From contig JBDRAV010000002.1 of assembly GCA_043823435.1 (NCBI GenBank), positions 61,755-125,754 of the forward strand: a DNA stretch of 64,000 nt. Reading direction: 5' to 3'. The notes under the pieces are model-generated. The model did not search any database and was not told where the DNA came from. It saw only the letters and a list, made by a program, of their open reading frames with translations. Shown in pieces: positions 44,706 to 61,293 of the stretch (positions are counted from its first letter, which is position 1; each line of letters opens with the position of its first letter). Source of the DNA: Candidatus Omnitrophota bacterium (lineage in GTDB: Bacteria; Omnitrophota; Gorgyraeia; Gygaellales; Profunditerraquicolaceae). The position numbers were made by a program, and so were the translations under genes.

Positions 44706-46226
44706 ATGAAGATTTTGCTTATTAACCCCCCCATAACCAGGCATGAGAGCGACCCTCTGGCAGGAGAAGCGGGGAATCTGCCTCTGGGCCTTTGTTATAT
44801 AGCGGCTTATTTAAAGAAAAATAATTATGAAGTCAGGGTCCTGGATGCTATGGCTGAAGGGGTGGGGAATATTGAAAAGAGGGGGCAATTCGTAAGGACG
44901 GGCCTAAGCGAAGAGAAAATAGAGGAGGCGATCCGCGAATTCAATCCGCAGGTGGTGGGGATAACTACCATGTTTACTTCTTATGCGCAGGATTCACATG
45001 ACATCGCAAAATTGGTTAAGAGGATAGATAATAATATCCTGGTTGTTCTCGGGGGCGTGCATGCTACGGCCTGTTATGATATGGTCTTCTCGGATAAGAA
45101 CGTGGATATTGTAGTGAAAGGTGAGGGGGAGATCACTATCGTGGAATTGATGCGCGCGCTTGAAAAGAAAGAAGCGATTACCGGTATACCGGGAACGATA
45201 GTCAGGTCGGGTGGTGAGCTCTTAAATAACGCGGACAGGCCCTTTATCGAGGACCTGGATAGATTGCCGTTTCCGCAGAGGGAATTCCTTCCCGTAGATG
45301 TATATTTGCGGGGCGCGAGGCTCTCTTATTGTATGCGCCAGCCGGTGATGGGTATGGTGACCAGCCGCGGATGCCCCTGTCGTTGTTCTTATTGCGGCAT
45401 CCACGCCGTCTGGAAGCATACATGGCGGGCCAGGAGCGCGGCTAATGTCGCAGATGAAATAGAATATTTGATCCGCCTATATGGCGCAAAGGAGTTCCAC
45501 TTCTTAGATGACAGCATATCCGCAGATAAACAGCGTATGCATGAAATATGCGATGAGATAATCAAGCGCAAGCTGGATATACGCTGGACTACCCCTAACG
45601 GCATAGCAATATGGACGCTGGACGAGCTGTTGTTAAAGAAGATGCGTAAGAGCGGTTGTTACCGTCTTACTTTCGGGATCGAGTCAGGGAATGAGCCCAC
45701 GCAGAGATTTATCGGAAAAATAATCAAATTCGAGCACGCGAACAGGATAATCAAGGCTGCCAATAGCCTGGGGATGTGGACCCTGGCTACTTTTATCATC
45801 GGTTTCCCCTATGAAACCAGGGAAGAGATCTTTGAAACAATAGAATTTTCCAAGAAATTGGATATTGATATTGCATTTTATAACGTGTTAATGCCTTTTC
45901 CTACTACCAGGGTTTACGAAATATTCCATAAAGAAGGGCTGTTGCCGGTAAACAGGTCTCTGGAATTTTTTAATGCCTTTACCGGAAAAGGCGGCGGGTG
46001 CGATACGAAATTATTCAAGAAGGAAGAATTGGCAGAATTCAGCGATATAGCGCATCGGGAATTCTACCGCAGCAGGATAAAGAAATTCATGAATCCGTTC
46101 AGGATCATGAATAAAATAAGAAGTTGGGAATCCGCAGGTTATGTTTTTACATTGCTCAAAGGAGTCATTTCTTATTCTACGGGAGAGTTTGAAACTAAGT
46201 CGAACCCGGAAAAGGCAAGGACCTGA
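44706..46226 (+). CDS. B12-binding-domain radical SAM protein (class B rSAM, putative methyltransferase)
   Basis: N-terminal cobalamin-binding-like domain; CPCRCSYCG contains the CX3CX2C cluster. Confidence 0.8.
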   Translation: MKILLINPPITRHESDPLAGEAGNLPLGLCYIAAYLKKNNYEVRVLDAMAEGVGNIEKRGQFVRTGLSEEKIEEAIREFNPQVVGITTMFTSYAQDSHDIAKLVKRIDNNILVVLGGVHATACYDMVFSDKNVDIVVKGEGEITIVELMRALEKKEAITGIPGTIVRSGGELLNNADRPFIEDLDRLPFPQREFLPVDVYLRGARLSYCMRQPVMGMVTSRGCPCRCSYCGIHAVWKHTWRARSAANVADEIEYLIRLYGAKEFHFLDDSISADKQRMHEICDEIIKRKLDIRWTTPNGIAIWTLDELLLKKMRKSGCYRLTFGIESGNEPTQRFIGKIIKFEHANRIIKAANSLGMWTLATFIIGFPYETREEIFETIEFSKKLDIDIAFYNVLMPFPTTRVYEIFHKEGLLPVNRSLEFFNAFTGKGGGCDTKLFKKEELAEFSDIAHREFYRSRIKKFMNPFRIMNKIRSWESAGYVFTLLKGVISYSTGEFETKSNPEKART

Positions 46227-47404: not shown

Positions 47405-48994
47405 GTGGCCATAGACAAGAAGAAAAAGATATTAATCATCGGGCTGGATGGGGTTGACCCGGACCTGCTGGATAAGTTTATCAGCGAAGGGATATTGCCG
47501 AATTTTAAGAGGCTGATCGCCAACGGTGCCTACGGGAAGATAAAATCTTCCATACCAATTATAACGACGGTCACCTGGAATTCTTTTATAACCGGGAAGA
47601 ATCCCGGCAAACACGGCATATTCGGCTTCGTCAATTTTAAGAAAGGCTCTTATGAATTGAAGATATTGAATTCAGCCGACCGGAAGGCCGATGGGATATG
47701 GGGATTATTGAACCGTTTCGGGAAGACAGTCGGTATCTTTAATCTTCCGTCATTGTACCCGGCAGAGAAGATAGATAGGTTCATGGTCTGCGGGATGCTC
47801 ACCCCTAATAAAAATAGCCGTTTTATTTATCCTCACGGGCTTCAGGAAGAATTCCTTCGCGAAATAAAAGATTACGAAATAGATGTAGGGGTGGTAAAGG
47901 CGGCCTACGACAGCAAGGATATCCTGCTTAAGAATATGTATTTTTTAACTGACAAGAGGTTCGAGGCGAGCGCGTATTTATTAAATAAGTACCCCTGCGA
48001 CCTGTTTGTAACCATAATCACGGAAACAGACAGGGTCCAGCATTATTTCTTAGATGACGCTGTGGCCTTGCGTGAATATTTCAAATACCTGGATAAAAAG
48101 ACAGGAGAGCTGCTGGCGCAGGCAGGAGATGACGCCACGGTATTTATAGTCTCCGACCATGGCATGGGCGCCTTCAGCAAGTACATCTATATAAACAGGT
48201 TCCTTATGGACGGCGGGTTCTTAAAGATCAACAAGCGCTCGACAAATTACGTAAAGCATTCTTTTACTAAAAAGATAATTCAAGTTCTAAGCACATTTCT
48301 TATGCGGATGAAATTCGATGTGGAACGGCTCAAGAAGATGCTGCCGCAGGGGCTTGTAAACAGCCTTACCTACCTTTATTGTTACTACGGCGGTATTGAC
48401 TGGGGTAAGAGCAGCGCTTATTTTTGTTCGGGCACCGGCGAAGGAATAACCATCAACACAAAGAAGCGTTTCCCCGCGGGGATAGTAGAAGAGCGGGATT
48501 ATGAAGCCCTTAGGGATAATATTATAAAAGGGCTGCTTGGTATCAAGGATCCGGATACGGGAGAGAGGGTCATTGAGGCTGCCTATAAAAGGGAAGAGTT
48601 GCTGAACGGTGATCATACTCAGGAGGCCCCTGACATAATCCTGAGATTACGTGACGGTTATGCTACCAATGAATCCGTAGAAACAGAAGTTGTATTGGGA
48701 GAGCGGCCTTTGCAAGAAATGCTTCTTGCGGAACACCGTTTGGAAGGTATAATTATTGCTTATGGAAAGGACATCAGGCAGGGCGTAAGAATAGAGGGAA
48801 GCAGCATTCTGGATATCGCTCCTACGCTACTGCGCATCTTCGGGATACCCGTGCCGCAGGATTTTGACGGCAAACCGCTGGAGGAGATATTCAAGCCAGG
48901 GGTGTTGAGCTTATCAAAAACCAGACCTCTCGGCGAAGCCGAGGCGTTACAGAAAAGGATCAGAGAATTGAAATCATCCGGCAGGATAAAATAG
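47405..48994 (+). CDS. Alkaline-phosphatase-superfamily protein, type I phosphodiesterase/nucleotide pyrophosphatase (NPP) family
   Basis: ILIIGLDGVDPDLL and PIITTVTWNSFITGKNPGKHGIF match the NPP-family metal site and Thr nucleophile block. Confidence 0.7.
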   Translation: MAIDKKKKILIIGLDGVDPDLLDKFISEGILPNFKRLIANGAYGKIKSSIPIITTVTWNSFITGKNPGKHGIFGFVNFKKGSYELKILNSADRKADGIWGLLNRFGKTVGIFNLPSLYPAEKIDRFMVCGMLTPNKNSRFIYPHGLQEEFLREIKDYEIDVGVVKAAYDSKDILLKNMYFLTDKRFEASAYLLNKYPCDLFVTIITETDRVQHYFLDDAVALREYFKYLDKKTGELLAQAGDDATVFIVSDHGMGAFSKYIYINRFLMDGGFLKINKRSTNYVKHSFTKKIIQVLSTFLMRMKFDVERLKKMLPQGLVNSLTYLYCYYGGIDWGKSSAYFCSGTGEGITINTKKRFPAGIVEERDYEALRDNIIKGLLGIKDPDTGERVIEAAYKREELLNGDHTQEAPDIILRLRDGYATNESVETEVVLGERPLQEMLLAEHRLEGIIIAYGKDIRQGVRIEGSSILDIAPTLLRIFGIPVPQDFDGKPLEEIFKPGVLSLSKTRPLGEAEALQKRIRELKSSGRIK

Positions 48995-49017
48995 AAAATT
49001 AAGACATTAAGAGATTA

Positions 49018-49494
49018 TTGATGAGAAGGCTTAAGAACTTTATCGGACTTAAATTGATGAGCTTCTTTATAAGGCTTAATTTCCGCCTTATTACAATGTG
49101 CAACGAGAGGATATTTGAGTATCCATGGGTTTTGACGCGCTGCAAGGCCGTGCGAGGGGACAAAATAGGAGACTTTGGCTGCAAGGGTAGCATGCTGGTG
49201 CCTTATTTGTCTTCTTTGGGCTTCCAGGTCTATGGCGTAGATCTTGCCGAGGGGTTGGATTTTTCCTCGCATTTTCTGGATAACTACAAAGATTTCAAAT
49301 TCGTCAAGAGCGATATAAGAAAAATGCCTTTCCCGGATAGTTTTTTTGACGTTTCATTTTCCATATCCACCCTGGAACATATATTCTCCGATGACAATTC
49401 CTGTGAAGATAATATAGCGCTTCAGGAGATTGTCAGAGTGACTAAGTCAGGTGGCCGGATACTTCTGAGTTTTCGTACGGAAGCGGCAATGTAA
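49018..49494 (+). CDS. Class I SAM-dependent methyltransferase fragment (Methyltransf_11-like); probably frameshifted
   Basis: VYGVDLAEG..., SISTLEHI..., GGRILLSF MTase motifs, but only 158 aa; a stop-free, start-less ~70-codon frame continues to ~49700. Confidence 0.5.
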   Translation: MMRRLKNFIGLKLMSFFIRLNFRLITMCNERIFEYPWVLTRCKAVRGDKIGDFGCKGSMLVPYLSSLGFQVYGVDLAEGLDFSSHFLDNYKDFKFVKSDIRKMPFPDSFFDVSFSISTLEHIFSDDNSCEDNIALQEIVRVTKSGGRILLSFRTEAAM

Positions 49495-49700
49495 GTAAGG
49501 GGCATATAGGGTATCCCTATAAGATATATAATGAAAAATCATTAAAAGAATTTTTGGATATCCCCGGATTAATATTAGAGGATATAGATTATTTTATAAA
49601 AAAAGCGCCAGTTTGGATTAAAGCAAAAAGAGAGGATATTGAAGGCCTGGATAATACAATGGAAACCCGCGGAACGGTTTGCCTGAGTCTCAAAAAAACA
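49018..49700 (+). pseudogene. Putative frameshift-disrupted methyltransferase gene (N-terminal ORF plus out-of-frame C-terminal remainder)
   Basis: After ...GGRILLSFRTEAAM* the +2 frame reads 70 codons with no stop and no start (NVSKGHIGYPYKIYNEKSLKEFLD...CLSLKKT*), the expected missing length of a ~230-aa MTase. Confidence 0.35.
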
Positions 49701-49714
49701 TAAGGAGATAATAA

Positions 49715-49942
49715 ATGGATAATCAGTCTAACGAATATGTGCAGATCCCGATACCAGGTATAATTGTCGAAAAGATAAAGAAGCGCATCAAGGATACGGA
49801 GTTCTCTACGGTATCCGAATATGTAATGTTTATCCTGAAAGAGGTACTGGGCGAGGAAGATAAAAAGGATATGCTTACCGAAGAAGAGGAGAAAGAGGTA
49901 AAAGAAACCCTTAAGAAACTCGGGTATTTGAAAGATGAATAA
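49715..49942 (+). CDS. Small ribbon-helix-helix (CopG/Arc/MetJ-like) protein with a Lys/Glu-rich tail; overlaps the next gene start by 8 nt
   Basis: YVQIPIPGIIVEKIKKRI...TVSEYVMFILKEVL fits a beta-alpha-alpha RHH pattern; GGAG RBS (AAGGAGAT); 75 aa. Confidence 0.45.
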   Translation: MDNQSNEYVQIPIPGIIVEKIKKRIKDTEFSTVSEYVMFILKEVLGEEDKKDMLTEEEEKEVKETLKKLGYLKDE

Positions 49943-51047
49943 GCCGAATGTGATAGTTCTGACCGTAGATATGGTGCGTAATGACATGCTGGGCAAATTC
50001 CCGGCTTTTAGAAAGCTAAAAGAAAAAGGCGTGCTCTTTTCTCATATGATCACCTACGCCCCATATACGATAGCTTCGCTGCACGCCATCTTTACCGGTA
50101 TGTACGGAAGGGATACGAATGTCGATGCCTATTTCAAGCCGGTAAAATTTGACAAGGACCACTGTTATACCCTTACGCAGTACTTGAAGAAGGACGGCTA
50201 TTATACCGAGGCCGACGTGATGGCGGAGTTGACCATACCGCGCTACGGCTTCGATAAATTTACCGTTCATGACGAGCATAAGGATAACCTCCTGGAGCGG
50301 CACGAGGGGGTTATCGAAAGGGCTATGCGGCAGCAGGAGAGGTTCTTTCTTTACCTGCATTACAGCAATATACATACCGAGATAGTGAAGAACGTAATCA
50401 GGAGATATACCGATTTTGACGCAGGATATTTCGGAAAGATCGATGAGAACCGCGCACAATACGAGACTTATGTGCAAAAGGCATGCGATTACGTGGAAGG
50501 GGTCATTGAGCTTTTCGACAGGCATAATTTATGGGAGAACACCTTATTTATTGTGCTCTCTGACCATGGCTGCGGTATCGGCGAGAAACCGGGGGAAAAG
50601 GCATATGGGGTATATACCTATGATTATTCTATCAAGGTATTCTCTTTCTTCATATACCCGAAGTTTTTACCGCAGAACAAGGAGGTCGGTATCCAGGTAA
50701 GAAGCGTAGATATAATGCCTACGGTACTGGATATCCTGGGTATAGAACCCGATAATGCATATAAACAGATGAGAGGCGCATCATTGATGGAGATGATACG
50801 GGATAGAGATAGTACTGACAGGATCGCTTTCGCGGAAACCGGCGGACTCGAAGGCCCGTATCCGTCCCCCTATCAACCGAACGTAAAGTGCATACGTTCC
50901 AGGAAATGGAAGCTTATCTATAATAGCACAACCGGAGCAAAAGAGCTCTACGATCTGGAGAATGACCCTGGTGAGAAGGATAATTGCATAGATAAATATC
51001 CGGAGCCGGCGTCTGAGCTCTGGAGCGAACTTTCAAAGAATATATAA
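49935..51047 (+). CDS. Sulfatase-fold (PF00884-like) enzyme with Thr in place of the Cys/Ser-FGly nucleophile; predicted phospho- or sulfo-group transferase/hydrolase
   Basis: PNVIVLTVDMVRNDMLG and SDHGCGIGE blocks of the sulfatase fold; the nucleophile segment reads APYTIASLHAIFTG with no C/S-x-P-x-R. Confidence 0.65.
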   Translation: MNKPNVIVLTVDMVRNDMLGKFPAFRKLKEKGVLFSHMITYAPYTIASLHAIFTGMYGRDTNVDAYFKPVKFDKDHCYTLTQYLKKDGYYTEADVMAELTIPRYGFDKFTVHDEHKDNLLERHEGVIERAMRQQERFFLYLHYSNIHTEIVKNVIRRYTDFDAGYFGKIDENRAQYETYVQKACDYVEGVIELFDRHNLWENTLFIVLSDHGCGIGEKPGEKAYGVYTYDYSIKVFSFFIYPKFLPQNKEVGIQVRSVDIMPTVLDILGIEPDNAYKQMRGASLMEMIRDRDSTDRIAFAETGGLEGPYPSPYQPNVKCIRSRKWKLIYNSTTGAKELYDLENDPGEKDNCIDKYPEPASELWSELSKNI

Positions 51048-51051
51048 AATA

Positions 51052-52197
51052 ATGATACAGGCACACGGCGGAAAGCTGGTTAACAGGGTTTTATCCAAAG
51101 AGGATGTATCGCAGATAATCTCACGTTCCAGGTATCTTATGCATTTGAGGGTTGACCATGACACCCTGTTGGATTTAGAGAATATTGCGCTAGGTGTATA
51201 CAGCCCCTTAAAAGGATTTATGGCTGAGGATGAATTCAAGAGCGTGGTATTAAGAAGACGCCTGTCGGATGGGCTGCCTTGGACTATACCCATTGTATTG
51301 CCTGTTAGCAAGGCAGAAGCTAAGAAGCTTTCGCGTTCCGAGATATTGCTCTGTGACCAGGGTGGCCTCCCGATAGGCATTATCAAGCCAGGGGCCCCTT
51401 ACACCATACATAGGGCCAGGGCGGTAAAGCACATATTCGGAACAACCAGCATGAAACACCCCGGGGTGCATAAATTCTATCAGGGATCTGATATATTCCT
51501 GGGTGGCGAGATCTCGCTGATCCGCAAAAATAAATATCCTTTTTATGATTTTAACCTGGAGCCCGCCAAAACCAGGGAGTTGATCCGTAAGAAGAAGTGG
51601 AAGACGATAGCGGGGTTTCAGACCCGTAATATCCCGCACCGGGCGCATGAATTCCTGCAAAAGATAGGCCTCTCGGTGGTAGACGGTATCCTTATCCATC
51701 CTATTATCGGATGGAAGAAAAAAGGGGATTTTAACCCGGAGGTGATCATAAAGGCGTACCAGATACTCATCGAACACTACTATCCGCGTGACCGAGTGAT
51801 ATTCTCAGGGCTTGCTACGGCGATGAGGTATGCAGGCCCGCTGGAAGCGGTCTTCCACGCCATTATACGCAAGAATTTTGGATGTACCCACTTTATTGTA
51901 GGCAGGGACCACGCAGGGGTGGGAGGGTTTTACGATAAATATGCCGCGCACCGCATATTTGATAAGTTTCCCGATTTAGGGATAGTCCCCATGCTCTTAA
52001 ACGGCCCTTATTATTGCAAAAAGTGCCTGAGCGTGGTAAGCGACAAGATATGCCCGCATCGCGATACGCACAATATCGAGATAAGCGGTACGCTCATCCG
52101 CCGCATGATCTCCCGGGGAGAACGCATACCGGATGAATATCTGCGCGAAGAGGTCGGAGAGTTTATCTATAAGCATAAAGACAGGTGTTTTATCTGA
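51052..52197 (+). CDS. sat: Sulfate adenylyltransferase (ATP sulfurylase, homo-oligomeric type)
   Basis: QTRNIPHRAHEF and VGRDHAGVG signature motifs plus N-terminal PUA-like domain; 381 aa. Confidence 0.9.
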   Translation: MIQAHGGKLVNRVLSKEDVSQIISRSRYLMHLRVDHDTLLDLENIALGVYSPLKGFMAEDEFKSVVLRRRLSDGLPWTIPIVLPVSKAEAKKLSRSEILLCDQGGLPIGIIKPGAPYTIHRARAVKHIFGTTSMKHPGVHKFYQGSDIFLGGEISLIRKNKYPFYDFNLEPAKTRELIRKKKWKTIAGFQTRNIPHRAHEFLQKIGLSVVDGILIHPIIGWKKKGDFNPEVIIKAYQILIEHYYPRDRVIFSGLATAMRYAGPLEAVFHAIIRKNFGCTHFIVGRDHAGVGGFYDKYAAHRIFDKFPDLGIVPMLLNGPYYCKKCLSVVSDKICPHRDTHNIEISGTLIRRMISRGERIPDEYLREEVGEFIYKHKDRCFI

Positions 52198-52210: not shown

Positions 52211-53671
52211 ATGGTAAAAATAATCTCCACAATAAGCCCGAAGACAGGTAGGCTTAAAGGGATAGACGTCGGAAGGATAAATTGCGCATTCGGCCCAAAA
52301 GAAGAGATCGCGCAGCTTGCCGGAAAGATAAAAGGCCCCTGGGGCTATCAATTACTACTGGACCTGCCGATCAACAGGAAGAAGATACGTACAAATGAAC
52401 TCTCTGCCGAAGAACTCATCGCCCTTGCCATACGCATAAAACCACAATATGTGGCTTTATCTTACGTAAAGTCCCACCGCGATATCGAAAGCTTCCGCAA
52501 GCACTTCGAGAAGACGGGGATACAAATAGTTTCTAAGATCGAGGCTGCCGAGGCGATGGAAGACCTGGACAGGATAATCCTTTTTTCGGACGCGGTAATG
52601 ATAGACAGGGGCGACCTTGCCGTTTCCATAGGTATAGAGAAACTGCACCAGGCGCAGAAGAGGATAGTGCGTAAATGCAATGAGCTCGGCAGGCAGGTCA
52701 TCGTAGCCACGGAGTTCCTCTTATCCATGGTTGACAATAATCAACCCACCAAGTCCGAGGTCGTGGATATAGCTAATGCCATCTCTGACGGCGCTGATTT
52801 CATAATGCTTTCCGAAGAGACCGCTATCGGTAATTTCTCGCAGCATTCTGTGGACGTGATCAAGAAGATCATCGCAGAGCTGGAGGACAAATATAAGGTA
52901 ATACTCCTTTCCGCCGGGGCTTCCATAGGGATGGGGGCGCTTACCGCACAACGCCATACCTGCCTTGTAGATATAGGCAATACGACTATCCTAGAGACGC
53001 AGCTGGCGGCTTGCAGGTATTGCAATATCAACGACGAAGATATCGTGATAGCCACGGGGAAAGGGGATTCGGCCATACGCGACTTCGTGCACCACAAACT
53101 TAAGAAAACAGATATAGAATTTGTTTATAACCCCTGGTATGAGAATTCCAATATGCTGGTTACGATATGGCTGGCGCGTGAATTTATCCGTAAGGGCTTT
53201 ATCGTGATTTACGGGGATGTTATTTTTGACCCCGAGATCTTAAAGCGAATCATCAAAAACCAGGACGACATCGTCCTGGGGGTGGAGAAGAAGAGGTGCG
53301 ACGAAGAGGATGAAAAGATCTGTATCAAAGACGGTATAATGACCCTGTCCAAGGAATACGCCAGCCTGCCGTTTCCCAGGCACAAGTGCATACCCGTCAA
53401 TGAAGCTTACGGAGAATTCATTGGTATCGCGAAGTTCAACCGATGGGGCGCTAATATACTTATAAATGAAATGGATAAGATCGTAAGAGAGAGCGACCTG
53501 AAGATCTATCTTATGGAGGCCTTTGAGCACCTTGCGGCAAAAGGGTATAGACTGAATATCGAAGATATCACCGGCCTTCCCTGGAATGACAATGATACCA
53601 TATATGACCTGAATTTAACGCGCGATAAGGTATTGCCAGATATGCGCAAAAGGCATAACCGCATTTTTTGA
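52211..53671 (+). CDS. Fusion protein: N-terminal pyruvate-kinase-like barrel domain (no PK C-terminal regulatory domain) plus C-terminal LicC/CTP:phosphocholine-cytidylyltransferase-like nucleotidyltransferase domain
   Basis: PK motifs KIISTISPKT, GRINCAFG, MIDRGDLAVSIGIEKL, VATEFLLSM, MLSEETAIG; then ILLSAGASIGMG...LVDIGNTTILETQL NT-domain G-loop and a ~230-aa NTP_transferase-like region; RBS AAGGAGAAGAG; start 14 nt after the sat stop. Confidence 0.7.
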   Translation: MVKIISTISPKTGRLKGIDVGRINCAFGPKEEIAQLAGKIKGPWGYQLLLDLPINRKKIRTNELSAEELIALAIRIKPQYVALSYVKSHRDIESFRKHFEKTGIQIVSKIEAAEAMEDLDRIILFSDAVMIDRGDLAVSIGIEKLHQAQKRIVRKCNELGRQVIVATEFLLSMVDNNQPTKSEVVDIANAISDGADFIMLSEETAIGNFSQHSVDVIKKIIAELEDKYKVILLSAGASIGMGALTAQRHTCLVDIGNTTILETQLAACRYCNINDEDIVIATGKGDSAIRDFVHHKLKKTDIEFVYNPWYENSNMLVTIWLAREFIRKGFIVIYGDVIFDPEILKRIIKNQDDIVLGVEKKRCDEEDEKICIKDGIMTLSKEYASLPFPRHKCIPVNEAYGEFIGIAKFNRWGANILINEMDKIVRESDLKIYLMEAFEHLAAKGYRLNIEDITGLPWNDNDTIYDLNLTRDKVLPDMRKRHNRIF

Positions 53672-53672
53672 T

Positions 53673-55433
53673 ATGCTTAAACCCGGTAAGAATATACTTA
53701 TAATACTGCTGTTTTTCATTATCGCCTCGATATTTACTTATCCGCTGGCCCTGAAGATGGATAAGGCGATACCGGGTTTTGGCAGTACGGACGAACCTTT
53801 TGCAGTAATATCTAATATGTGGTTAGTAAAATATAGCTCCCAGCGCGGGATAGACCTGAAGAATAATGACTATATAGCTTATCCTTTCGGAGTAGACCTG
53901 ACCGCTTACTGGGGGAGCTCATACCTTTGGGAATACCTAAAGAATACCCTGTCTTTTATCACAAGCCATATCGTTGCCTTTAATATCCTGATATTCATGA
54001 GTTTTATCCTTTCGGGGTGGTTCACTTACCTGTTGGTTTACCGCCTCACTGGTTCCGCTGTGGCAGGGATATTCTCCGGGGCGATATTCTCACTGTGCCC
54101 GTATCATTTTGCCCGTGTCTGGCAGCACCTGGCGCTTTCCCAGATCCAATGGATGCCGTTATATCTGTTAAGCCTGCTATCTTTCAAGGATAAGCCCGTT
54201 CCTAGAAATATATTTTTTGTCGCGGTATCTTTATTTTTAGTGGTTTCTTTTAATTTTTATTACGCCTATTTTATGGCGGTGGCGAGCGCCCTCTTCGTCG
54301 TTTTTATTATTAAGGAGAACGGTATTAGAAGGGCGGCGTTTAATTATATATCGAAACTTTTTCTTGCCTACTTGATAGTCTTGGTCATGATAGCACCTAA
54401 CCTGTGGGAGGTTTATAAGTATAAGAATTCATCCAGGCGCGATATCCCGCTTGAACATAATATTGCGCAGCGCCCCTTCGATGATTTATTTTCGCAATCC
54501 GCAAGGCCGTTAAGTTATATTTTACCTTCCAGCGAACACCCTCTTTTCGGGGGGATTGCCCGGATCTTCCTGGGCAGTAAATTATACGGCGAAAGCCTTA
54601 CGGAACATGCGCTTTATCTGGGGTGGATACCGCTTATTCTCGCTTTTATGGTTTATCGTAAGTGCAGGAAAGACGCGCATAAACTAAAATATAAGAAGGA
54701 TGTTTTCTGCCTCGATTTCTTTGTATGGCTTGCCGTTATCAGCTGGTTATTTTCGCAGCCCCCATGGTGGCAGATAGGTCCGTTTAGGGTATATATGCCG
54801 TCTTTTTTTATGTATAAAGCCCTGCCGATGTTCAGGGCATATTGCAGGTTCGGCGTAGTCCTGATGTTGGCAGTCGCGGTGCTGGCGGGTTTTGGCCTGA
54901 GGTACCTTTTGGAGCGTTATAATAATAAGGCGTTAAAAGGGGTACTGGTTACGGTCGTATTTGGCATGCTTTTCTTTGAGTTCCTGAACTTTCCGCCCCT
55001 CAAGGTCATAGAATTAGATAATTCCCCAGCGGTATACGAGTGGTTAAGCAAACAGAAGGGTGATTTTGCGGTAGCAGAATACCCGCTTGATTACCAGAGC
55101 CAAAACGTGTATTATTTATTCTATCAGACCGTGCACCGTAAAAAGATTATAAATGCTAGTAATCCCGGGACTTACGCCAGCAGTGTCGCGAAGCTTATCC
55201 GTACACTCTCCGATCCCGATACCGTTAAAATCCTGAATTGGATGGGGGTAAAGTATGTGATAGTCCATCGCGACGATTATATAAATACAGGGTTGATCGA
55301 TGAGATAGATGAGGCAAAGAAGATATCCTTTAACCCTCTGTTGAAATTTGTACGGAGTTTTCCTGATACGGATTTATACGCGATAAATACCCGCGAGAAA
55401 TTGGATCCGGAGACGTTGTTGCGTTCTCCATAA
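53673..55433 (+). CDS. Large polytopic membrane protein, putative GT-C-fold glycosyltransferase (YfhO/ArnT/PMT-like)
   Basis: About 12-14 TM helices, 586 aa, N-terminal FTYPLALKMDKAIPGFGSTDEP region resembling GT-C/YfhO proteins; no soluble-domain motifs found. Confidence 0.45.
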   Translation: MLKPGKNILIILLFFIIASIFTYPLALKMDKAIPGFGSTDEPFAVISNMWLVKYSSQRGIDLKNNDYIAYPFGVDLTAYWGSSYLWEYLKNTLSFITSHIVAFNILIFMSFILSGWFTYLLVYRLTGSAVAGIFSGAIFSLCPYHFARVWQHLALSQIQWMPLYLLSLLSFKDKPVPRNIFFVAVSLFLVVSFNFYYAYFMAVASALFVVFIIKENGIRRAAFNYISKLFLAYLIVLVMIAPNLWEVYKYKNSSRRDIPLEHNIAQRPFDDLFSQSARPLSYILPSSEHPLFGGIARIFLGSKLYGESLTEHALYLGWIPLILAFMVYRKCRKDAHKLKYKKDVFCLDFFVWLAVISWLFSQPPWWQIGPFRVYMPSFFMYKALPMFRAYCRFGVVLMLAVAVLAGFGLRYLLERYNNKALKGVLVTVVFGMLFFEFLNFPPLKVIELDNSPAVYEWLSKQKGDFAVAEYPLDYQSQNVYYLFYQTVHRKKIINASNPGTYASSVAKLIRTLSDPDTVKILNWMGVKYVIVHRDDYINTGLIDEIDEAKKISFNPLLKFVRSFPDTDLYAINTREKLDPETLLRSP

Positions 55434-57200: not shown

Positions 57201-59018
57201 ATGAATATTTTAGGCATATCTTCTTTTTATCATGATAGCGCGGCGTGCCTGGTAAGGGATGGCGACATCGTTGCCGCGGCGCAGGAGGAGCGGTTTACCC
57301 GCAAGAAACATGATTTTAATTTCCCTCTCAATTCCATAAACTGGTGCCTTGAGGCCGCAGGAATCATACCGCAGGAACTTGATTATGTCATCTTCTATGA
57401 TAAGCCTTTTATTAAATTCGAAAGAATCCTGGAAACTGCCCTTACTTATGCCCCTTCGGGCGTGCGGCAATTTATCCAGGCGATGCCGCTATGGTTGAAA
57501 CAAAAGCTCTGGATCCCCGAGTTGATAAGAAAGGACCTGCATTATAAGGGCAGGATATTATTCTGCGGCCATCACGAATCACACGCTGCCAGTGCATTTT
57601 ATCCTTCGCCTTTCAAGAGTGCTGCATTTCTGACTATGGACGGCGTGGGGGAGTGGGATACAGCCAGCTTCGGGATAGGAGAGGGAAACGACATTGAAAT
57701 TCTACAGACTTTGAGGTTTCCACATTCTCTGGGCCTTTTGTATTCCACTTTTACGTATTACACTGGCTTTAAAGTAAATTCCGGGGAGTATAAATTAATG
57801 GGCCTGGCCCCGTACGGTGAGCCGAAATACGCAGGGCCGATTCTTGATGAATTAATAGATCTTAAGGAAGACGGTTCATTTAAATTAAATATGAAATTTT
57901 TCGGTTACTGTGACGGACTTAAGATGACTAACCGCAGATTTGAAAAGTTATTCGGCGGTCCGGCCAGGAAGCCGGAAACAAAAATAACAAAAAAGGATAT
58001 GGATATTGCGGCCTCGATACAGAAGGTAGCCGAAGAGGTCATACTGCGTATGGTAAGGCATGTGCATAAAGTTACAGGTAAGAGCAGCCTTTGCCTTGCG
58101 GGCGGAGTAGCTTTGAACTGCGTGGGTAACGGCCGTATTTTACGGGAAGGCCCGTTTAAAAATATATGGATCCAGCCGGCCAGCGGCGATGCAGGGGCGG
58201 CATTGGGTGCTGCGCTTCTGGTCTGGTATAGGTATTTAGGGAATAGGCGTTATAGCGACGATAAGAAAGATAGCCAGAAAGCATCTCTACTGGGGCCCGC
58301 GTACACAGACGCAGATATAGAGGATTTTCTGGTAAAAGAAAAAGTCCCTTATAAGAAGCTTGAGTATTCAGATATCCCTGAAAGAGTGGCGGAGCTGATC
58401 GCTCAGGGCAATGTAATCGGGTGGTTTCAGGGGCGCCTTGAGTTTGGCCCGAGGGCGCTGGGGGCAAGGAGCATAATCGCAGATGCCAGAAGCCCCCAAA
58501 TGCAGTCCAGGATGAACCTGAAAATAAAATACCGGGAGTCTTTCCGGCCCTTTGCCCCTACGGTCTTAAGCGAAAAGGCTTCGGAGTGGTTTGAAATAAC
58601 ACCGGAAAGCCCCTATATGCTTCTGGTTGCTGCGGTAAGAGAAGATAAAAGAGCGGATCCCGGGGTAGGGGAAAGCGGATTATCGGGATTTGACAAACTG
58701 AAAGTAATACGTTCGCAAATACCGGCAGTAACTCACGTCGATAATTCAGCCAGGATACAGACGATTAAAAGAGAAGACAATCCTTTATATTATGATATGA
58801 TAAGTGCGTTTTACAAGAAAACGGCTTGTCCGGTTATAATAAATACATCTTTTAACGTAAGAGGGGAACCTCTTGTATGTAGCCCCGAGGACGCATTCAA
58901 GTGTTTTATAAGGACAGGAATGGATTATCTGATCATGGGCCCTTTTCTGCTGGATAAGAAAGGGCAAAAGCCGCTTGAGAAAGACATAAAATGGCAGGAG
59001 GTTTTTGAGTTGGATTAA
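57201..59018 (+). CDS. NodU/CmcH-family O-carbamoyltransferase
   Basis: MNILGISSFYHDSAACLVRDGDIVAAAQEERFTRKKHD is the YrdC/Kae1-like NodU N-terminus; 605 aa. Confidence 0.9.
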   Translation: MNILGISSFYHDSAACLVRDGDIVAAAQEERFTRKKHDFNFPLNSINWCLEAAGIIPQELDYVIFYDKPFIKFERILETALTYAPSGVRQFIQAMPLWLKQKLWIPELIRKDLHYKGRILFCGHHESHAASAFYPSPFKSAAFLTMDGVGEWDTASFGIGEGNDIEILQTLRFPHSLGLLYSTFTYYTGFKVNSGEYKLMGLAPYGEPKYAGPILDELIDLKEDGSFKLNMKFFGYCDGLKMTNRRFEKLFGGPARKPETKITKKDMDIAASIQKVAEEVILRMVRHVHKVTGKSSLCLAGGVALNCVGNGRILREGPFKNIWIQPASGDAGAALGAALLVWYRYLGNRRYSDDKKDSQKASLLGPAYTDADIEDFLVKEKVPYKKLEYSDIPERVAELIAQGNVIGWFQGRLEFGPRALGARSIIADARSPQMQSRMNLKIKYRESFRPFAPTVLSEKASEWFEITPESPYMLLVAAVREDKRADPGVGESGLSGFDKLKVIRSQIPAVTHVDNSARIQTIKREDNPLYYDMISAFYKKTACPVIINTSFNVRGEPLVCSPEDAFKCFIRTGMDYLIMGPFLLDKKGQKPLEKDIKWQEVFELD

Positions 59019-59061
59019 AGTTCAGTAGTTAGTAGGTAGTAGATAGTAGATAGGGGTTAGG

Positions 59062-59463
59062 GTGGAAAAACTAAAATTAGATAAAGATAATCTAAGGAAA
59101 TTCGGAATCATTATGGGTATTGCGTTTATGGTGATAACCGTGATTATACTTATCAGGCACAAGCATAATCTAATACCTACGGCTATAGTTTCAGCAATAT
59201 TCTTGATATCGGCTTTTACCGCGCCGCTATTATTGAAACCAGTTTATTTAGGATGGATGAGATTTGCGTTTATATTGAGTTGGATTAATACAAGGGTAAT
59301 CTTGTTTATTATGTTTTATTTAATTTTTGCACCCGTAGGCATTATAATGCGTATTTTAAGGATAGATCTTTTGAGAAGGAAGATAGATAAAGATAAAGAT
59401 TCTTACTGGCAGGATGCCGATAAGAAGCCTTTTAACAGGGCGGATTACGACAGGCAGTTTTAG
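59062..59463 (+). CDS. SxtJ-like small membrane protein (commonly encoded after NodU/CmcH carbamoyltransferases)
   Basis: 133 aa, 3-4 TM helices, position directly after the carbamoyltransferase and before a DUF5989-like ORF. Confidence 0.5.
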   Translation: MEKLKLDKDNLRKFGIIMGIAFMVITVIILIRHKHNLIPTAIVSAIFLISAFTAPLLLKPVYLGWMRFAFILSWINTRVILFIMFYLIFAPVGIIMRILRIDLLRRKIDKDKDSYWQDADKKPFNRADYDRQF

Positions 59464-60569: not shown

Positions 60570-61292
60570 ATGATAAATATAGCCGATACAGGAGAAAGGA
60601 TACTCCCCGAGAAAGAATCTCCGTTGATGACGGCGAGGCACTTGTGCGCCTACAAATTCGCCAGGGACCTCCTCGCAGGTAAAGGGGTATTGGATATAGG
60701 TTGCGGCGAAGGTTACGGCAGCTATTATTTAAGCGGGTCTTCCAAAGAGGTAACGGCCATAGACTACAACCAGGAAATAATAGATCACGCGAAGAATAAA
60801 TATATTGCGAACAACCTGGAATTTTACAGTTTAGATATAAAAGATCTATGTTCCCTGAAAGGCAAATTCGATGCAATATGTTCTTTTCAGGTCATAGAGC
60901 ACCTGCAAGATACGCAGGGGTTCCTGAAGAATATAAAGCTTCTTTTGAATCCCGCAGGCATTTTTATCTGTTCAACCCCGAACATGCTGGATGCCTCACA
61001 AAACAGCGTTAGGCCCCTGAACAGGTTTCATGTCAGGGAGTATCTGTTTGATGAATTCAGGCAATTGCTAGGAGTACATTTTAAGAGAATAGAAATATCG
61101 GGTTTAAAAAAAGGGGCCAGGCTTAATGTGTACAGGATGCTTAAGAAGTCGGGGCTCTTTAATTTTTTGCCTGACCCGATAAACCCCGTAAAGAAATTCT
61201 ACCAGAAGATAGATTGCGGTAATTTCATCATTGTTAAAAAAGGCCTGGATACGGCCCTGGATTTTATCGCAGTATGCAGCGACCCGGTTTAA
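60570..61292 (+). CDS. Class I SAM-dependent methyltransferase
   Basis: Motif I VLDIGCGEGYGSYYLS, motif II ICSFQVIEHL. Confidence 0.7.
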   Translation: MINIADTGERILPEKESPLMTARHLCAYKFARDLLAGKGVLDIGCGEGYGSYYLSGSSKEVTAIDYNQEIIDHAKNKYIANNLEFYSLDIKDLCSLKGKFDAICSFQVIEHLQDTQGFLKNIKLLLNPAGIFICSTPNMLDASQNSVRPLNRFHVREYLFDEFRQLLGVHFKRIEISGLKKGARLNVYRMLKKSGLFNFLPDPINPVKKFYQKIDCGNFIIVKKGLDTALDFIAVCSDPV

Positions 61293-61293
61293 T

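What the first reader, a model, noticed from the sequence alone, without database searches (positions are those of the whole stretch)
52211..53671. Unusual pyruvate-kinase-barrel::LicC-like nucleotidyltransferase fusion protein
Residues ~1-240 carry the canonical PK catalytic motifs (TISPKT, GRINCAFG, MIDRGDLAV, ATEFLLSM, MLSEETAIG) but lack the PK C-terminal allosteric domain. Residues ~250-490 start with an ILLSAGxxxGMG glycine loop and look like a sugar/phosphocholine cytidylyltransferase. Known PEP-linked NT fusions use PEP mutase (ICL/PEPM fold), not PK. Known PEP/2-phospholactate nucleotidyltransferases (CofC/FbiD) are unfused. A PK-like domain physically coupled to an NT domain suggests channeling of a PEP-derived or PK-phosphorylated intermediate into an NDP-activated donor.
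Basis: partly seen in the sequence, partly recalled or inferred. Interest (0 to 1): 0.7.

Follow-up and report, generated by a model that had tools for sequence, protein, structure and literature searches.

The report
Sulfurylase-coupled pyruvate-kinase–nucleotidyltransferase fusion
A stripped-down pyruvate kinase barrel fused to a decayed nucleotidyltransferase domain always sits beside ATP sulfurylase and probably uses phosphoenolpyruvate to drive sulfate activation without APS kinase, a coupling I found described nowhere.

Summary
ORF 52211-53671 (486 aa) is a pyruvate-kinase (PK) catalytic barrel fused to a LicC/PntC-type nucleotidyltransferase (NT) domain. More than 100 homologues exist in Omnitrophota and Planctomycetota.

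- The PK half also lacks the lid (B) domain.
- The NT half has lost the Arg and Lys of the pyrophosphate/alpha-phosphate site, which its unfused relatives keep.
- Every fusion with readable flanks lies next to ATP sulfurylase (Sat), against 0 of 80 ordinary PK loci and 0 of 69 unfused NT loci.

The PK half belongs to a distinct "PK*" group. It carries Asp where ordinary PKs have Ala292 (0 of 209 ordinary PKs have Asp). The group includes direct PK*-Sat fusion proteins. It also includes DPANN archaeal cassettes of the form PK*, Sat, APS kinase, pAp-phosphatase-like PHP. No APS kinase or known sulfotransferase occurs near any PK*-NT gene.

Best reading (inferred, not shown): PK*-NT consumes the APS made by Sat. 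It couples phosphoenolpyruvate (PEP) to sulfate activation, and the product feeds phospho- or sulfo-group transferases on surface glycans or lipids. Chemistry and product are unknown.

The parts
52211..53671 (+). PK*-NT fusion gene (486 aa)
   Evidence: Single ORF. Identical to NCBI P0001. Model pLDDT 94.
52211..52885 (+). PK* half: pyruvate-kinase A-domain TIM barrel only (residues 1-225)
52367..52402 (+). Scar of the deleted lid (B) domain: loop PINRKKIRTNEL (residues 53-64), with invariant K58 and near-invariant R60
   Evidence: Alignment A1 shows about 95 residues present here in the long forms and in true PKs. Column counts.
52604..52606 (+). Codon for Asp132 (rabbit PK Ala292 position), the marker of sulfurylase-coupled PKs
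   Evidence: Asp in 103 of 103 fusions, in the DPANN Sat-linked PKs and in the PK-Sat fusions. Ala in all 209 ordinary PKs checked: 80, 9 and 120. Numbering mapped through 1a49.
52892..53668 (+). NT half: LicC/PntC-type nucleotidyltransferase fold (residues 228-486)
52910..52960 (+). Degenerate nucleotide-phosphate loop SAGASIGMGALTAQRHT (residues 234-250). The canonical form is GxG(T/S)R...PK.
   Evidence: Arg15 equivalent is Gly and Lys25 equivalent is Thr. All ~65 readable unfused relatives examined keep R and PK. The role of these residues is described in PMC6697681.
51052..52197 (+). ATP sulfurylase (Sat), 13 nt upstream of the fusion gene; the invariant partner
   Evidence: NCBIfam NF003166 473 bits (cutoff 387); TIGR00339 350 bits (cutoff 323). 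QTRNIPHRAH and VGRDHAG motifs. Adjacent in every fusion locus.
49935..51047 (+). Cytosolic sulfatase-fold protein (called AlkP-S here) with Thr in place of the formylglycine Cys; candidate group transferase
   Evidence: Pfam Sulfatase. Alignment to sulfatase 6hr5 shows Cys to Thr and Arg to Leu. No TM segment or signal peptide. 46-69% identical orthologues follow or precede Sat in L001 and L088.
49018..49494 (+). SAM methyltransferase between the two alkaline-phosphatase-superfamily genes
   Evidence: Pfam. The same trio (larger AlkP, AlkP-S, methyltransferase) occurs in L172 and L173.
47405..48994 (+). Cytosolic type-I phosphodiesterase / nucleotide pyrophosphatase-like protein (Thr nucleophile)
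   Evidence: Pfam Phosphodiest, E=9e-40. PDB hits PhnA and NPP. Homologues in L001, L005, L088 and L170.
53673..55433 (+). 586-aa polytopic membrane protein whose start lies 1 nt after the fusion gene's stop; candidate membrane transferase, function unknown
   Evidence: At least 8 predicted TM segments. No Pfam, NCBIfam or PDB hit.

Best explanation
The protein is the signature enzyme of a sulfate-activation module that has no APS kinase. ATP sulfurylase (51052-52197) makes APS, a strongly uphill reaction that only proceeds if APS is removed at once. PK*-NT is the APS-side partner.

Its PK* half keeps the complete PEP, Mg2+ and phosphoryl-transfer machinery of pyruvate kinase. It has lost the allosteric C-domain and, in this window, the nucleotide-binding lid. 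Its NT half keeps the nucleotide fold, the metal ligands and the nucleophile-side Lys. It has lost the pyrophosphate pocket, so it most likely holds a nucleotide without a PPi leaving group, namely APS rather than CTP.

The mechanism I commit to: the NT half binds APS and the PK* half spends PEP on it. The net reaction is APS + PEP giving a 3'-phosphorylated PAPS-type donor plus pyruvate. One polypeptide thereby replaces the PK* plus APS kinase pair seen in the DPANN cassettes. The activated group is then passed to a surface glycan or lipid. The transferase would be the sulfatase-fold Thr enzyme in this window, or CDP-alcohol-phosphotransferase-like, TagF-like or LtaS-like enzymes elsewhere.

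Shown: the architecture, the residue pattern, the strict Sat linkage, the PK*-Sat fusion proteins, the DPANN cassettes, and the absence of APS kinase.

Inferred: that APS is the ligand of the NT half, that PEP is the phosphoryl donor to it, the identity of the product, and the roles of the transferases.
For: 1. Sat is adjacent in every PK*-NT locus with readable flanks: the window, L001-L007, L088, L089, L093-L097 and L168-L171. These span two phyla and both gene orders, and the genes often overlap by 4 nt. The controls are 0 of 80 ordinary PK loci and 0 of 69 unfused NT loci.
2. Rosetta-stone fusions exist: P0362 (lid-less PK* + Sat), P0369 (Sat + PK* with A and B domains) and P0389 (full PK* + Sat).
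3. Asp at the Ala292 position marks all Sat-linked PKs and none of 209 ordinary PKs. The D-type sequences fall outside the ordinary PK cluster in an NJ tree.
4. Two DPANN cassettes have the form PK*, Sat, APS kinase, PHP. The PHP proteins match the pAp-phosphatase/RNase AM family (2yb1, 7ug9; E 1e-23 to 1e-31).
5. No APS kinase lies in the window or in 15 fusion loci. No sulfotransferase, APS kinase or CysQ Pfam domain was found in the window ORFs scanned (+ strand, at least 120 aa).
6. The NT loop decay is specific to the fusions. It removes exactly the PPi-site Arg15 and the alpha-phosphate Lys25 defined in PntC (PMC6697681).
7. A second, independent nucleotidyltransferase-like tail on a lid-less PK* (P0374) has also lost its HxGH motif.
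8. PK plus PEP is what chemists add in vitro to keep APS kinase running (PMC9885120).
Against: - No assay and no ligand-bound structure exists. I could not inspect the model coordinates, so I do not know whether the two active sites face each other.
- In NT folds the ribose hydroxyls are normally buried, which makes 3'-phosphorylation of a bound APS awkward.
- The region of the NT half that follows the signature loop closely resembles that of the unfused relatives, which are presumed cytidylyltransferases. This argues for a cytidine rather than an adenine ligand.
- The nucleophile-side Lys (K392) and the metal ligands remain invariant. This looks like retained nucleotidyl-transfer chemistry rather than mere binding.
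- The recurrent neighbours are phospho-alcohol transferases, not known sulfotransferases.
- Long forms keep the lid and Lys25, so they may work as ordinary NDP kinases.
- The complementarity between APS kinase and the NT domain rests on only two archaeal cassettes.
- APS kinase could be encoded elsewhere in these genomes.
Confidence: 0.35

Rival explanations
1. The fusion follows kinase plus cytidylyltransferase logic, like LicA and LicC. The PK* half makes or holds a 2-oxyacid phosphate (PEP, phosphoglycerate, phospholactate or a sulfated derivative), or regenerates CTP. The NT half converts it into a CDP-linked donor. The phospho-X group of that donor is installed by the neighbouring CDP-alcohol phosphotransferase, TagF-like or alkaline-phosphatase-type transferases. 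Sat supplies sulfate for X or for the same glycan.
For: - The NT half is closest to the cytidylyltransferases PntC, LicC and IPCT.
- Metal ligands and the Lys153 equivalent are invariant. 4 of 91 fusions keep Arg15, and the long forms keep Lys25.
- A CDP-OH_P_transf gene follows the module in L089, L094, L096, L168, L169 and L170, and lies nearby in L171. A TagF-like gene is present in L005.
- The canonical DxxDGxxAR...G...D...D motif is intact in L168.
- Unfused relatives L116 and L117 are fused to TagF-like transferases.
- PEP-mutase-NT fusions set a precedent (PMC6697681).
Against: - The loss of Arg15, and of Lys25 in the short forms, should cripple CTP-dependent transfer.
- The idea gives no reason for the absolute Sat linkage, for PK*-Sat fusions without an NT domain, or for the DPANN PK*, Sat, APS-kinase cassettes.
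- PEP and phosphoglycerate need no dedicated kinase.
- No NDP is produced for a PK to recycle.
Confidence: 0.22
2. The NT half still performs nucleotidyl-transfer chemistry but uses APS instead of an NTP as donor, with sulfate as the leaving group instead of PPi. It adenylylates a phosphate or phosphonate nucleophile to give ADP-X. Alternatively it transfers the sulfuryl group. The PK* half merely supplies ATP to Sat.
For: - Only the leaving-group (PPi) side of the NT site has decayed. The nucleophile-side Lys and the metal ligands are invariant.
- Sat provides APS next door.
- Long forms retain the lid with the Arg119, Lys206 and His77 equivalents needed to phosphorylate ADP.
Against: - With sulfate acting only catalytically, the net reaction is the same as using ATP directly, so there is no energetic gain.
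- The lid-less PK* of this window should bind ADP poorly.
- The base-pocket region looks like that of the cytidine enzymes.
- No precedent is known to me.
Confidence: 0.15
3. PK* is only a dedicated ATP generator for Sat, as PK is in in-vitro PAPS synthesis. The NT-like domain is a non-catalytic nucleotide sensor that replaced the allosteric C-domain. APS kinase and sulfotransferases are encoded elsewhere in the genome.
For: - The NT domain occupies the sequence position of the PK C-domain.
- Its catalytic loop is decayed.
- PK plus PEP is used for ATP regeneration in vitro.
- DPANN cassettes pair a full PK* with APS kinase.
Against: - 36 invariant NT-domain positions, including metal ligands and Lys residues, argue for catalysis.
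- A lid-less barrel is unlikely to be an efficient ADP kinase.
- A module-specific Sat without a module-specific APS consumer in 15 loci would be odd.
Confidence: 0.1
4. It is an ordinary glycolytic pyruvate kinase, as annotated, or an assembly or frameshift artefact.
For: NCBI and JGI name it 'pyruvate kinase'.
Against: - It lacks the B and C domains.
- It scores far below the PK equivalog cutoffs: 184 against 306, and 189 against 432.
- More than 100 homologues share the architecture.
- It lies in a glycan cluster next to Sat.
- Ordinary PKs exist separately in the same phyla (P0117, L049).
Confidence: 0.02

Closest known systems
Pyruvate kinase (EC 2.7.1.40; e.g. rabbit PKM1 1a49, B. stearothermophilus 2e28)
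   Different: No C-domain, and no lid (B) domain in this window. Ala292 is replaced by Asp. His77 is replaced by Phe in the short forms. It is fused to an NT domain and genetically tied to ATP sulfurylase instead of glycolysis.
PntC / LicC phosphonate- and phosphocholine-cytidylyltransferases (6pd1, 1jyk), including the PEP-mutase-NT fusions of phosphonate clusters such as Fom1
   Different: The GXG(T/S)R...PK signature has decayed (Arg15 to Gly, second Gly to Ser, Lys25 to Thr). The partner barrel is PK, not PEP mutase. No Ppd or other phosphonate genes are in the module. Sat is the invariant neighbour.
Classical PAPS synthesis (ATP sulfurylase + APS kinase, CysC/PAPSS), and the DPANN cassette PK*, Sat, APS kinase, PHP found here
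   Same: A canonical Sat is present and needs an APS sink. PK chemistry is linked to sulfate activation, as in chemoenzymatic PAPS synthesis. Phosphoesterases lie nearby.
   Different: There is no P-loop APS kinase and no recognised sulfotransferase or CysQ. The APS-side enzyme would be a PK barrel plus an NT fold, which is unprecedented for this step.
Campylobacter O-methyl-phosphoramidate pathway (Cj1415-Cj1418; own knowledge of Raushel-group work) and its relative in L174
   Same: Similar logic: a PEP-family phosphotransfer domain plus a cytidylyltransferase (fused in L174) builds a PAPS-like nucleotide donor of a small tetrahedral group. Homologues of the sulfatase-fold protein AlkP-S and methyltransferases sit alongside.
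   Different: The kinase fold is different (PPDK-type with a swivelling His, against PK). The cytidylyltransferase is HIGH-type. An amidase replaces Sat. The transferred group is phosphoramidate.
CofC/FbiD (2-phospho-L-lactate / PEP guanylyltransferase of F420 biosynthesis)
   Same: An NT-superfamily enzyme that activates PEP or a 2-oxyacid phosphate as an NDP diester.
   Different: No sequence match to the CofC family at E<=1. Those enzymes are unfused. The F420-pathway genes CofD and FbiA are absent from the Pfam tables of neighbours.

Membership tests
Pyruvate kinase (functional EC 2.7.1.40) | A-domain TIM barrel with the PEP, Mg2+ and phosphoryl-transfer residues (Arg72, Asn74, Asp112, Lys269, Glu271, Asp295, Thr327, Ser361, Glu363) | tested here: met
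   [not shown]
Pyruvate kinase (functional EC 2.7.1.40) | Lid (B) domain that closes over ADP/ATP (Lys206 and others) | tested here: not met
   Deleted in the window protein and in 36 short forms. Present in 58 long forms.
Pyruvate kinase (functional EC 2.7.1.40) | C-terminal alpha/beta domain (PF02887) | tested here: not met
   No PF02887 hit. The NT domain occupies its place.
Pyruvate kinase (functional EC 2.7.1.40) | Score above the curated equivalog cutoffs | tested here: not met
   TIGR01064 184 bits against cutoff 306. NF004491 189.5 bits against cutoff 432.
Sat-coupled PK* group (defined here) | Asp at the Ala292 position (M-I/V-D-R-G-D-L) plus genetic linkage or fusion to ATP sulfurylase | tested here: met
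   D132. Sat lies 13 nt upstream. The pattern holds across.
LicC/PntC-type cytidylyltransferase | NT alpha/beta fold homologous to LicC and PntC | tested here: met
   [not shown]
LicC/PntC-type cytidylyltransferase | GXG(T/S)R motif with Arg15 forming the PPi pocket | tested here: not met
   The sequence is A-S-I-G-M-G, and the Arg15 equivalent is Gly (76 of 91 fusions). The role of Arg15 is described in PMC6697681.
LicC/PntC-type cytidylyltransferase | Terminal Lys of the ...PK motif on the alpha-phosphate | tested here: not met
   Thr250 in the window protein. Lys in 57 of 91 fusions, the long forms.
LicC/PntC-type cytidylyltransferase | Metal-binding acidic residues and the nucleophile-guiding Lys153 | tested here: met
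   D336, D460, D462 and K392 are invariant, or 90 of 91. Equivalence rests on the alignment only.
LicC/PntC-type cytidylyltransferase | CTP-dependent formation of a CMP/CDP-linked product | not testable with these tools
   Needs an enzyme assay.
APS kinase / PAPS synthase | P-loop APS-kinase domain (PF01583) | tested here: not met
   No such domain in the protein, in the window or in 15 fusion loci.
APS kinase / PAPS synthase | Conversion of APS to PAPS | not testable with these tools
   Proposed as functional analogy only.
HpcH/HpaI aldolase or PEP mutase barrels | Best match to those families rather than to PK | tested here: not met
   [not shown]
CofC/FbiD | Match to the CofC family model | tested here: not met
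   Absent from the Pfam and NCBIfam hit lists at E<=1.

The most novel reading that the evidence does not exclude
PK*-NT is a new kind of PAPS synthase. It would be a PEP-dependent APS 3'-phosphotransferase built from a lid-less pyruvate-kinase barrel and a nucleotidyltransferase fold turned into an APS holder. Alternatively it makes a new activated sulfate nucleotide. The co-encoded sulfatase-fold Thr enzymes and CDP-alcohol-phosphotransferase-like membrane proteins would then be unrecognised sulfotransferases that sulfate surface glycans or lipids in Omnitrophota, Planctomycetota and DPANN archaea.
Probability: 0.2. Interest if true: 0.88.

Novelty: new variant of a known kind. Interest (0 to 1): 0.72.

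Why it matters
Sulfate activation is textbook chemistry: ATP sulfurylase, then APS kinase. Here a pyruvate-kinase lineage is hard-wired to ATP sulfurylase, by gene fusion, by overlapping genes and by a private active-site-region substitution. This holds across Omnitrophota, Planctomycetota and DPANN archaea. In the bacterial version APS kinase is missing, and a decayed nucleotidyltransferase domain is fused to the PK barrel instead.

If PEP drives the APS-consuming step, this is a new enzymatic solution to the thermodynamic problem of sulfate activation. It could also matter for organisms that conserve pyrophosphate, but that is speculation. It would point as well to unrecognised sulfo- or phospho-group transferases that decorate cell surfaces in largely uncultured phyla.

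Practically, hundreds of proteins now annotated 'pyruvate kinase', 'choline kinase' or 'arylsulfatase A-like' are probably misnamed. The hypothesis can be tested directly with two recombinant proteins.

Tried and rejected
- **Genome scan.** The genome-contig scan with the full-length alignment chose PK-generic peptide patterns. I re-used those 80 loci as a negative control.
- **HpcH aldolase or PEP mutase identity of the barrel.** Rejected.
- **CofC/FbiD or F420-type reading.** No family match and no pathway neighbours.
- **Phosphonate pathway (PK barrel as a PEP-mutase analogue).** No Ppd, aminotransferase or ADH is conserved with the fusion. Phosphonate genes occur only in the archaeal locus L175.
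- **Real sulfatase next to Sat.** Rejected. Thr replaces the formylglycine Cys and Leu replaces the Arg.
- **APS kinase hidden nearby.** tblastn with E. coli CysC and two DPANN APS kinases found nothing. A Pfam scan of the window ORFs (+ strand, at least 120 aa) found none.
- **Triple fusions or informative fusions of Sat or AlkP-S in the 90%-identity database.** None.
- **Speculative chemistries.** I considered sulfoenolpyruvate or C-sulfonation, phosphosulfate or 'CDP-sulfate', and a PEP + Pi to PPi cycle. I set these aside as unsupported.
- **Literature.** Eight searches found no description of a PK-NT fusion or of a natural PK-sulfurylase linkage.
- **Unavailable or unhelpful.** The afdb50 fold library was unavailable. 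Foldseek against PDB gave only PK hits. Model coordinates could not be inspected, so the geometry between the two domains is unknown.
Full report
**1. What is at the coordinates**

A single ORF runs 52211-53671 on the + strand and encodes 486 aa. Its ATG is preceded by a Shine-Dalgarno-like GGAGAAGAG and lies 13 nt after the stop of the upstream gene. The protein is identical to an NCBI entry named 'MAG: pyruvate kinase [Candidatus Omnitrophota bacterium]' on a 133-kb contig (P0001).

- Pfam finds the pyruvate-kinase barrel (PF00224, E=4e-43), but only profile positions 180-328 match (residues 68-214). It also finds a marginal NTP_transf_3 hit at residues 230-358.
- The PK equivalog models score far below their cutoffs.
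- An AlphaFold model built on 91 homologues is confident (pLDDT 94, pTM 0.82).

**2.

*The lid is missing.* Aligning the protein with homologues and true PKs shows two forms of the fusion.
- A long form (about 570-600 aa, mostly Planctomycetota) keeps the PK lid (B) domain.
- A short form (about 480-490 aa, Omnitrophota, including this window) has the lid excised. A 12-residue loop replaces it (residues 53-64).
- Of the listed fusions, 36 are short and 58 long.
- Neither form has the PK C-domain. The NT domain follows the barrel directly.

*The PK catalytic set is intact.* Across 91 fusions the counterparts of rabbit Arg72, Asn74, Asp112, Lys269, Glu271, Arg293, Asp295, Ser361 and Glu363 are invariant. 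Thr327 is Thr or Ser. Lys58 is invariant; it corresponds to the Lys in the LDLPG-x-K-I-R region that the two bacterial PKs in alignment A1 also carry, which in K+-independent PKs replaces the cation (own knowledge). Arg60 (the Arg119 equivalent) is kept in 86 of 91. His77 is kept in the long forms and is Phe in the short forms, so it co-varies with the loss of the lid.

*The NT signature has decayed.*
- Canonical relatives read AAGxGxRLxPLTxxxPK. The fusions read AAGxSxGxGSLTxxxH(K/T)C.
- The PntC Arg15 equivalent is Gly in 76 of 91 fusions and Arg in only 4. The second Gly of GxG is Ser in 74.
- The Lys25 equivalent is Lys in the long forms but Thr, Val or Ala in the short forms. It is Thr250 here.
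- All of the roughly 65 readable unfused relatives recovered from metagenomes keep R and PK.
- In PntC these residues form the pyrophosphate pocket (Arg15) and contact the alpha-phosphate (Lys25). R15A, K25A and K153A each leave less than 10% activity, and the Lys-to-Ala change abolishes activity in FrbH and YgbP (PMC6697681).
- The Lys153 equivalent (K392) and the acidic metal ligands (D336, D460, D462) stay invariant in the fusions.

In short, the leaving-group side of the NT site has decayed while the rest is under strong selection.

**3. The surroundings**

The window from about 29 kb to 63 kb is one large surface-glycan cluster. It contains a flippase, GT2 and GT4 transferases, radical-SAM enzymes, an AsnB-like amidotransferase, GDP-mannose dehydratase, a C-methyltransferase, a DegT aminotransferase, a carbamoyltransferase and others.

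Immediately around the target, all on the + strand, lie:
- a cytosolic phosphodiesterase/NPP-like protein (47405);
- a methyltransferase (49018);
- a cytosolic sulfatase-fold protein, called AlkP-S here (49935);
- ATP sulfurylase (51052);
- PK-NT (52211);
- a 586-aa polytopic membrane protein with no family match, starting 1 nt after the PK-NT stop (53673).

The sulfurylase passes NCBIfam cutoffs (473 against 387; 350 against 323) and has the QTRNxPHRAH and GRDHAG motifs. AlkP-S is not a sulfatase. Thr replaces the formylglycine Cys and Leu replaces the Arg of CxPxR. It has no signal peptide or TM segment. None of the window ORFs scanned (+ strand, at least 120 aa) has an APS-kinase, sulfotransferase or CysQ domain.

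**4. The decisive comparative result: the partner is ATP sulfurylase**

Contexts came from exact-protein look-ups and from a metagenome scan with an NT-specific profile. I analysed them by tblastn.

- Every fusion with readable flanks has Sat next to it: the window, L001-L007, L088, L089, L093-L097 and L168-L171.
- The gene order differs between forms. It is Sat then PK-NT in short forms and PK-NT then Sat in long forms. The genes often overlap by 4 nt.
- Controls: 0 of 80 ordinary PK loci (1.3 Mb) and 0 of 69 loci of unfused NT relatives (0.54 Mb) contain a Sat homologue.
- No APS kinase is found in the window or in 15 fusion loci, using E. coli CysC and two archaeal APS kinases as queries.

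The third member of the module varies in fold but not in type.
- A CDP-alcohol phosphotransferase appears in L089, L094, L096, L097/L168, L169, L170 and L171. Its nearest NCBIfam models, all weak matches, are archaetidylinositol-phosphate, DIPP and PIP synthases. The signature motif is intact in L168.
- A TagF-like glycerophosphotransferase appears in L005.
- The cytosolic AlkP-S appears in the window, in L088 and in L001 (46-69% identity).
- Membrane-anchored LtaS/EptA-like alkaline-phosphatase-superfamily proteins appear in L003, L005, L089 and L171.
- A phosphoesterase of changing family is usually nearby: PAP2, PHP, Metallophos or HAD.

**5. The PK half belongs to a sulfurylase-coupled PK group ('PK*')**

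The barrel carries Asp132 in M-I-D-R-G-D-L, where PKs have Ala292. The numbering is mapped through 1a49.

- Asp is found in 103 of 103 fusions.
- Ala is found in all 80 ordinary PKs from the genome loci, in all 9 true PKs, and in 120 ordinary PK representatives. The remaining twelve representatives had another residue or no readable motif.

Searching Sat homologues uncovered two DPANN archaeal cassettes.
- Nanoarchaeota L175 and Woesearchaeota L177 both carry [HTH + full-length PK] then [Sat] then [APS kinase] then [PHP phosphoesterase]. PK and Sat overlap by 4 nt in L175.
- Both PKs carry the Asp.
- The PHP proteins match the 3',5'-bisphosphate-nucleotidase/RNase AM family (2yb1/2yb4, 7ug9) at E 1e-23 to 1e-31. 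The pAp-phosphatase activity of 2yb1 (Cv1693) is my own knowledge.

An exhaustive HMMER search with the window's PK half (sequences) found direct fusion proteins.
- P0362 is a lid-less PK* plus Sat.
- P0369 is Sat plus a PK* with A and B domains and no C domain.
- P0389 is a full PK* plus Sat.
- All three are Asp-type. None of the 120 Ala-type representatives is Sat-fused.

The same search found stand-alone lid-less, C-less PK* barrels of 224-251 aa. It also found P0374, a lid-less PK* with a HIGH-type cytidylyltransferase-like tail whose HxGH motif is lost. In a rough NJ tree without support values, all Ala-type PKs cluster together and all Asp-type sequences fall outside that cluster.

So PK chemistry is coupled to sulfate activation in nature. 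The NT domain is one of several partners of PK*. The NT-fused form is the one found without APS kinase: 15 loci against 2 archaeal cassettes.

**6. How it most likely works**

The ATP-sulfurylase reaction is strongly unfavourable and needs an immediate APS sink (established knowledge). In vitro, PK plus PEP is added to regenerate the ATP used by APS kinase and to relieve ADP inhibition (PMC9885120). The DPANN cassette looks like the natural version of that recipe.

In the bacterial modules the only protein that always accompanies Sat is PK*-NT. By elimination it is the APS-side enzyme. I therefore propose that the NT half, having lost its PPi pocket, holds APS rather than CTP. I propose that the PK* half spends PEP on it, with the net reaction APS + PEP giving a PAPS-type product plus pyruvate. 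One polypeptide would thereby replace PK* plus APS kinase.

This accounts for:
- the Sat linkage;
- the missing APS kinase;
- the dispensability of the ADP-binding lid;
- the fusion-specific decay of the NT loop, and the parallel decay in P0374;
- the nearby phosphoesterases, which could dispose of pAp.

It would also be energetically attractive, because PEP makes the overall activation favourable without pyrophosphate hydrolysis.

This mechanism is inference. Several points count against it.
- I could not inspect the model's coordinates.
- NT folds usually bury the ribose hydroxyls.
- The region after the signature loop resembles that of the unfused relatives, which are presumed cytidylyltransferases.
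- The nucleophile-side residues are still conserved.
- The recurrent downstream enzymes are phospho-alcohol transferases, not known sulfotransferases.

I put this reading at about 0.35. The broader statement, that the protein is a component of a PEP-linked, Sat-dependent activation module, I would put at about 0.7.

**7. Rivals**

It explains neither Sat, nor the PK*-Sat fusions, nor the decayed catalytic loop.

b. *The NT half uses APS as nucleotidyl or sulfuryl donor while PK* feeds ATP to Sat, about 0.15.* This fits the residue pattern best. But it brings no energetic gain if sulfate is merely released, and it suits a lid-less PK poorly.

c. *PK* is only an ATP generator and the NT half a regulatory nucleotide sensor, with APS kinase elsewhere, about 0.1.* The many invariant catalytic-type residues in the NT half weaken it.

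d. *An ordinary PK or an artefact.* Rejected.

**8. The accessory alkaline-phosphatase-type genes**

AlkP-S belongs to a much wider family. There are 691 hits at E<1e-20, with 45-50% identity from Omnitrophota to DPANN. Without Sat or PK*-NT it still occurs as a trio with a larger AlkP protein and a methyltransferase in glycan clusters (L172, L173). That is the same trio as 47405, 49018 and 49935 here.

In L174 it sits beside a 965-aa fusion of a cytidylyltransferase with a PPDK-type kinase, plus a class-I amidotransferase. This is the gene content of the Campylobacter O-methyl-phosphoramidate pathway (own knowledge). It suggests that AlkP-S transfers a small nucleotide-activated tetrahedral group (phosphoramidyl, sulfuryl or phospho-X) onto sugars. 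It also shows a second case of a PEP-family phosphotransfer domain fused to a cytidylyltransferase.

**9. Comparison with the known, and novelty**

- The protein works with PK-type chemistry but is not a pyruvate kinase by membership. The lid, the C-domain, the equivalog score and Ala292 all fail.
- It has the LicC/PntC fold but fails the two signature residues of that family.
- It is not an APS kinase by any sequence criterion.
- Eight literature searches found no description of the fusion or of a natural PK-sulfurylase linkage.
- Databases call these proteins 'pyruvate kinase' or 'choline kinase'.

I classify it as a new variant of known kinds: a new PK lineage and architecture tied to sulfate activation. 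If the proposed chemistry holds, the enzyme activity would be new.

**10. Verdict**

Interest 0.72.

Noticed in passing
L174 8001-12862 (JGI 3300082556, Ga0675950_000061): A 965-aa fusion of CTP_transf_like + PPDK_N + PEP-utilizers lies next to a GATase/Peptidase_C26 and an AlkP-S homologue. This looks like the Campylobacter O-methyl-phosphoramidate pathway (Cj1416 + Cj1418 fused, plus Cj1417) in an unrelated metagenomic organism.
   Followed up: partly
L175 7367-19134 (Nanoarchaeota GCA_018816725.1) and L177 8236-12656 (Woesearchaeota GCA_016188175.1): DPANN cassette of HTH-pyruvate kinase, ATP sulfurylase, APS kinase and PHP (pAp-phosphatase-like). In L175 it is followed by fosfomycin/HEP-like phosphonate genes: a CT-PEP mutase fusion, Ppd, Fe-ADH and two B12 radical-SAM enzymes. 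A CDP-alcohol-phosphotransferase-like gene, not called by Pfam, sits between the APS kinase and the PHP gene.
   Followed up: partly
window 47405-51047; L172 6632-9811; L173 6490-10049: A recurrent trio (larger alkaline-phosphatase-superfamily protein, about 375-aa sulfatase-fold protein with a Thr nucleophile, SAM methyltransferase) occurs in glycan clusters of bacteria and DPANN archaea. It appears with or without Sat, and its function is unknown.
   Followed up: partly
window 53673-55433: A 586-aa protein with at least 8 TM segments starts 1 nt after the PK-NT stop. It has no Pfam, NCBIfam or PDB match and no homologue in the other fusion loci.
   Followed up: partly
window 39107-40120: A radical-SAM + SPASM protein (anSME-like architecture) sits in the same cluster, although the sulfatase-fold protein has no Cys or Ser to mature. 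Similar rSAM-SPASM genes lie near AlkP-S homologues in L173 and L174.
   Followed up: no
window 44706-46226: A B12-binding radical-SAM enzyme whose best NCBIfam matches are P-methyltransferase families (Sden_1168, PhpK), all below cutoff. B12-rSAM genes recur near the module in L005 and L170.
   Followed up: no
P0374 (342 aa): A lid-less PK* barrel is fused to a roughly 110-aa HIGH-type cytidylyltransferase-like tail whose HxGH motif is lost. This is a second, independent decayed nucleotidyltransferase fused to PK*.
   Followed up: partly
P0366-P0370, P0402, P0432, P0491 (224-251 aa): Stand-alone pyruvate-kinase barrels without lid or C-domain, all Asp-type.
   Followed up: no
window 57201-59463: A carbamoyltransferase is followed by an SxtJ-like small protein inside the glycan cluster.
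   Followed up: no
window 61231-63348: A 705-aa ORF with no family match, at the edge of the cluster.
   Followed up: no
[not shown]
   Followed up: no
L001, L003, L097/L168, L169 (Planctomycetota): Conserved synteny upstream of the module: proline dehydrogenase, a thioredoxin-reductase-like flavoprotein, PTS EIIA-2, and a divergently transcribed 580-650-aa PAP2 membrane protein.
   Followed up: no
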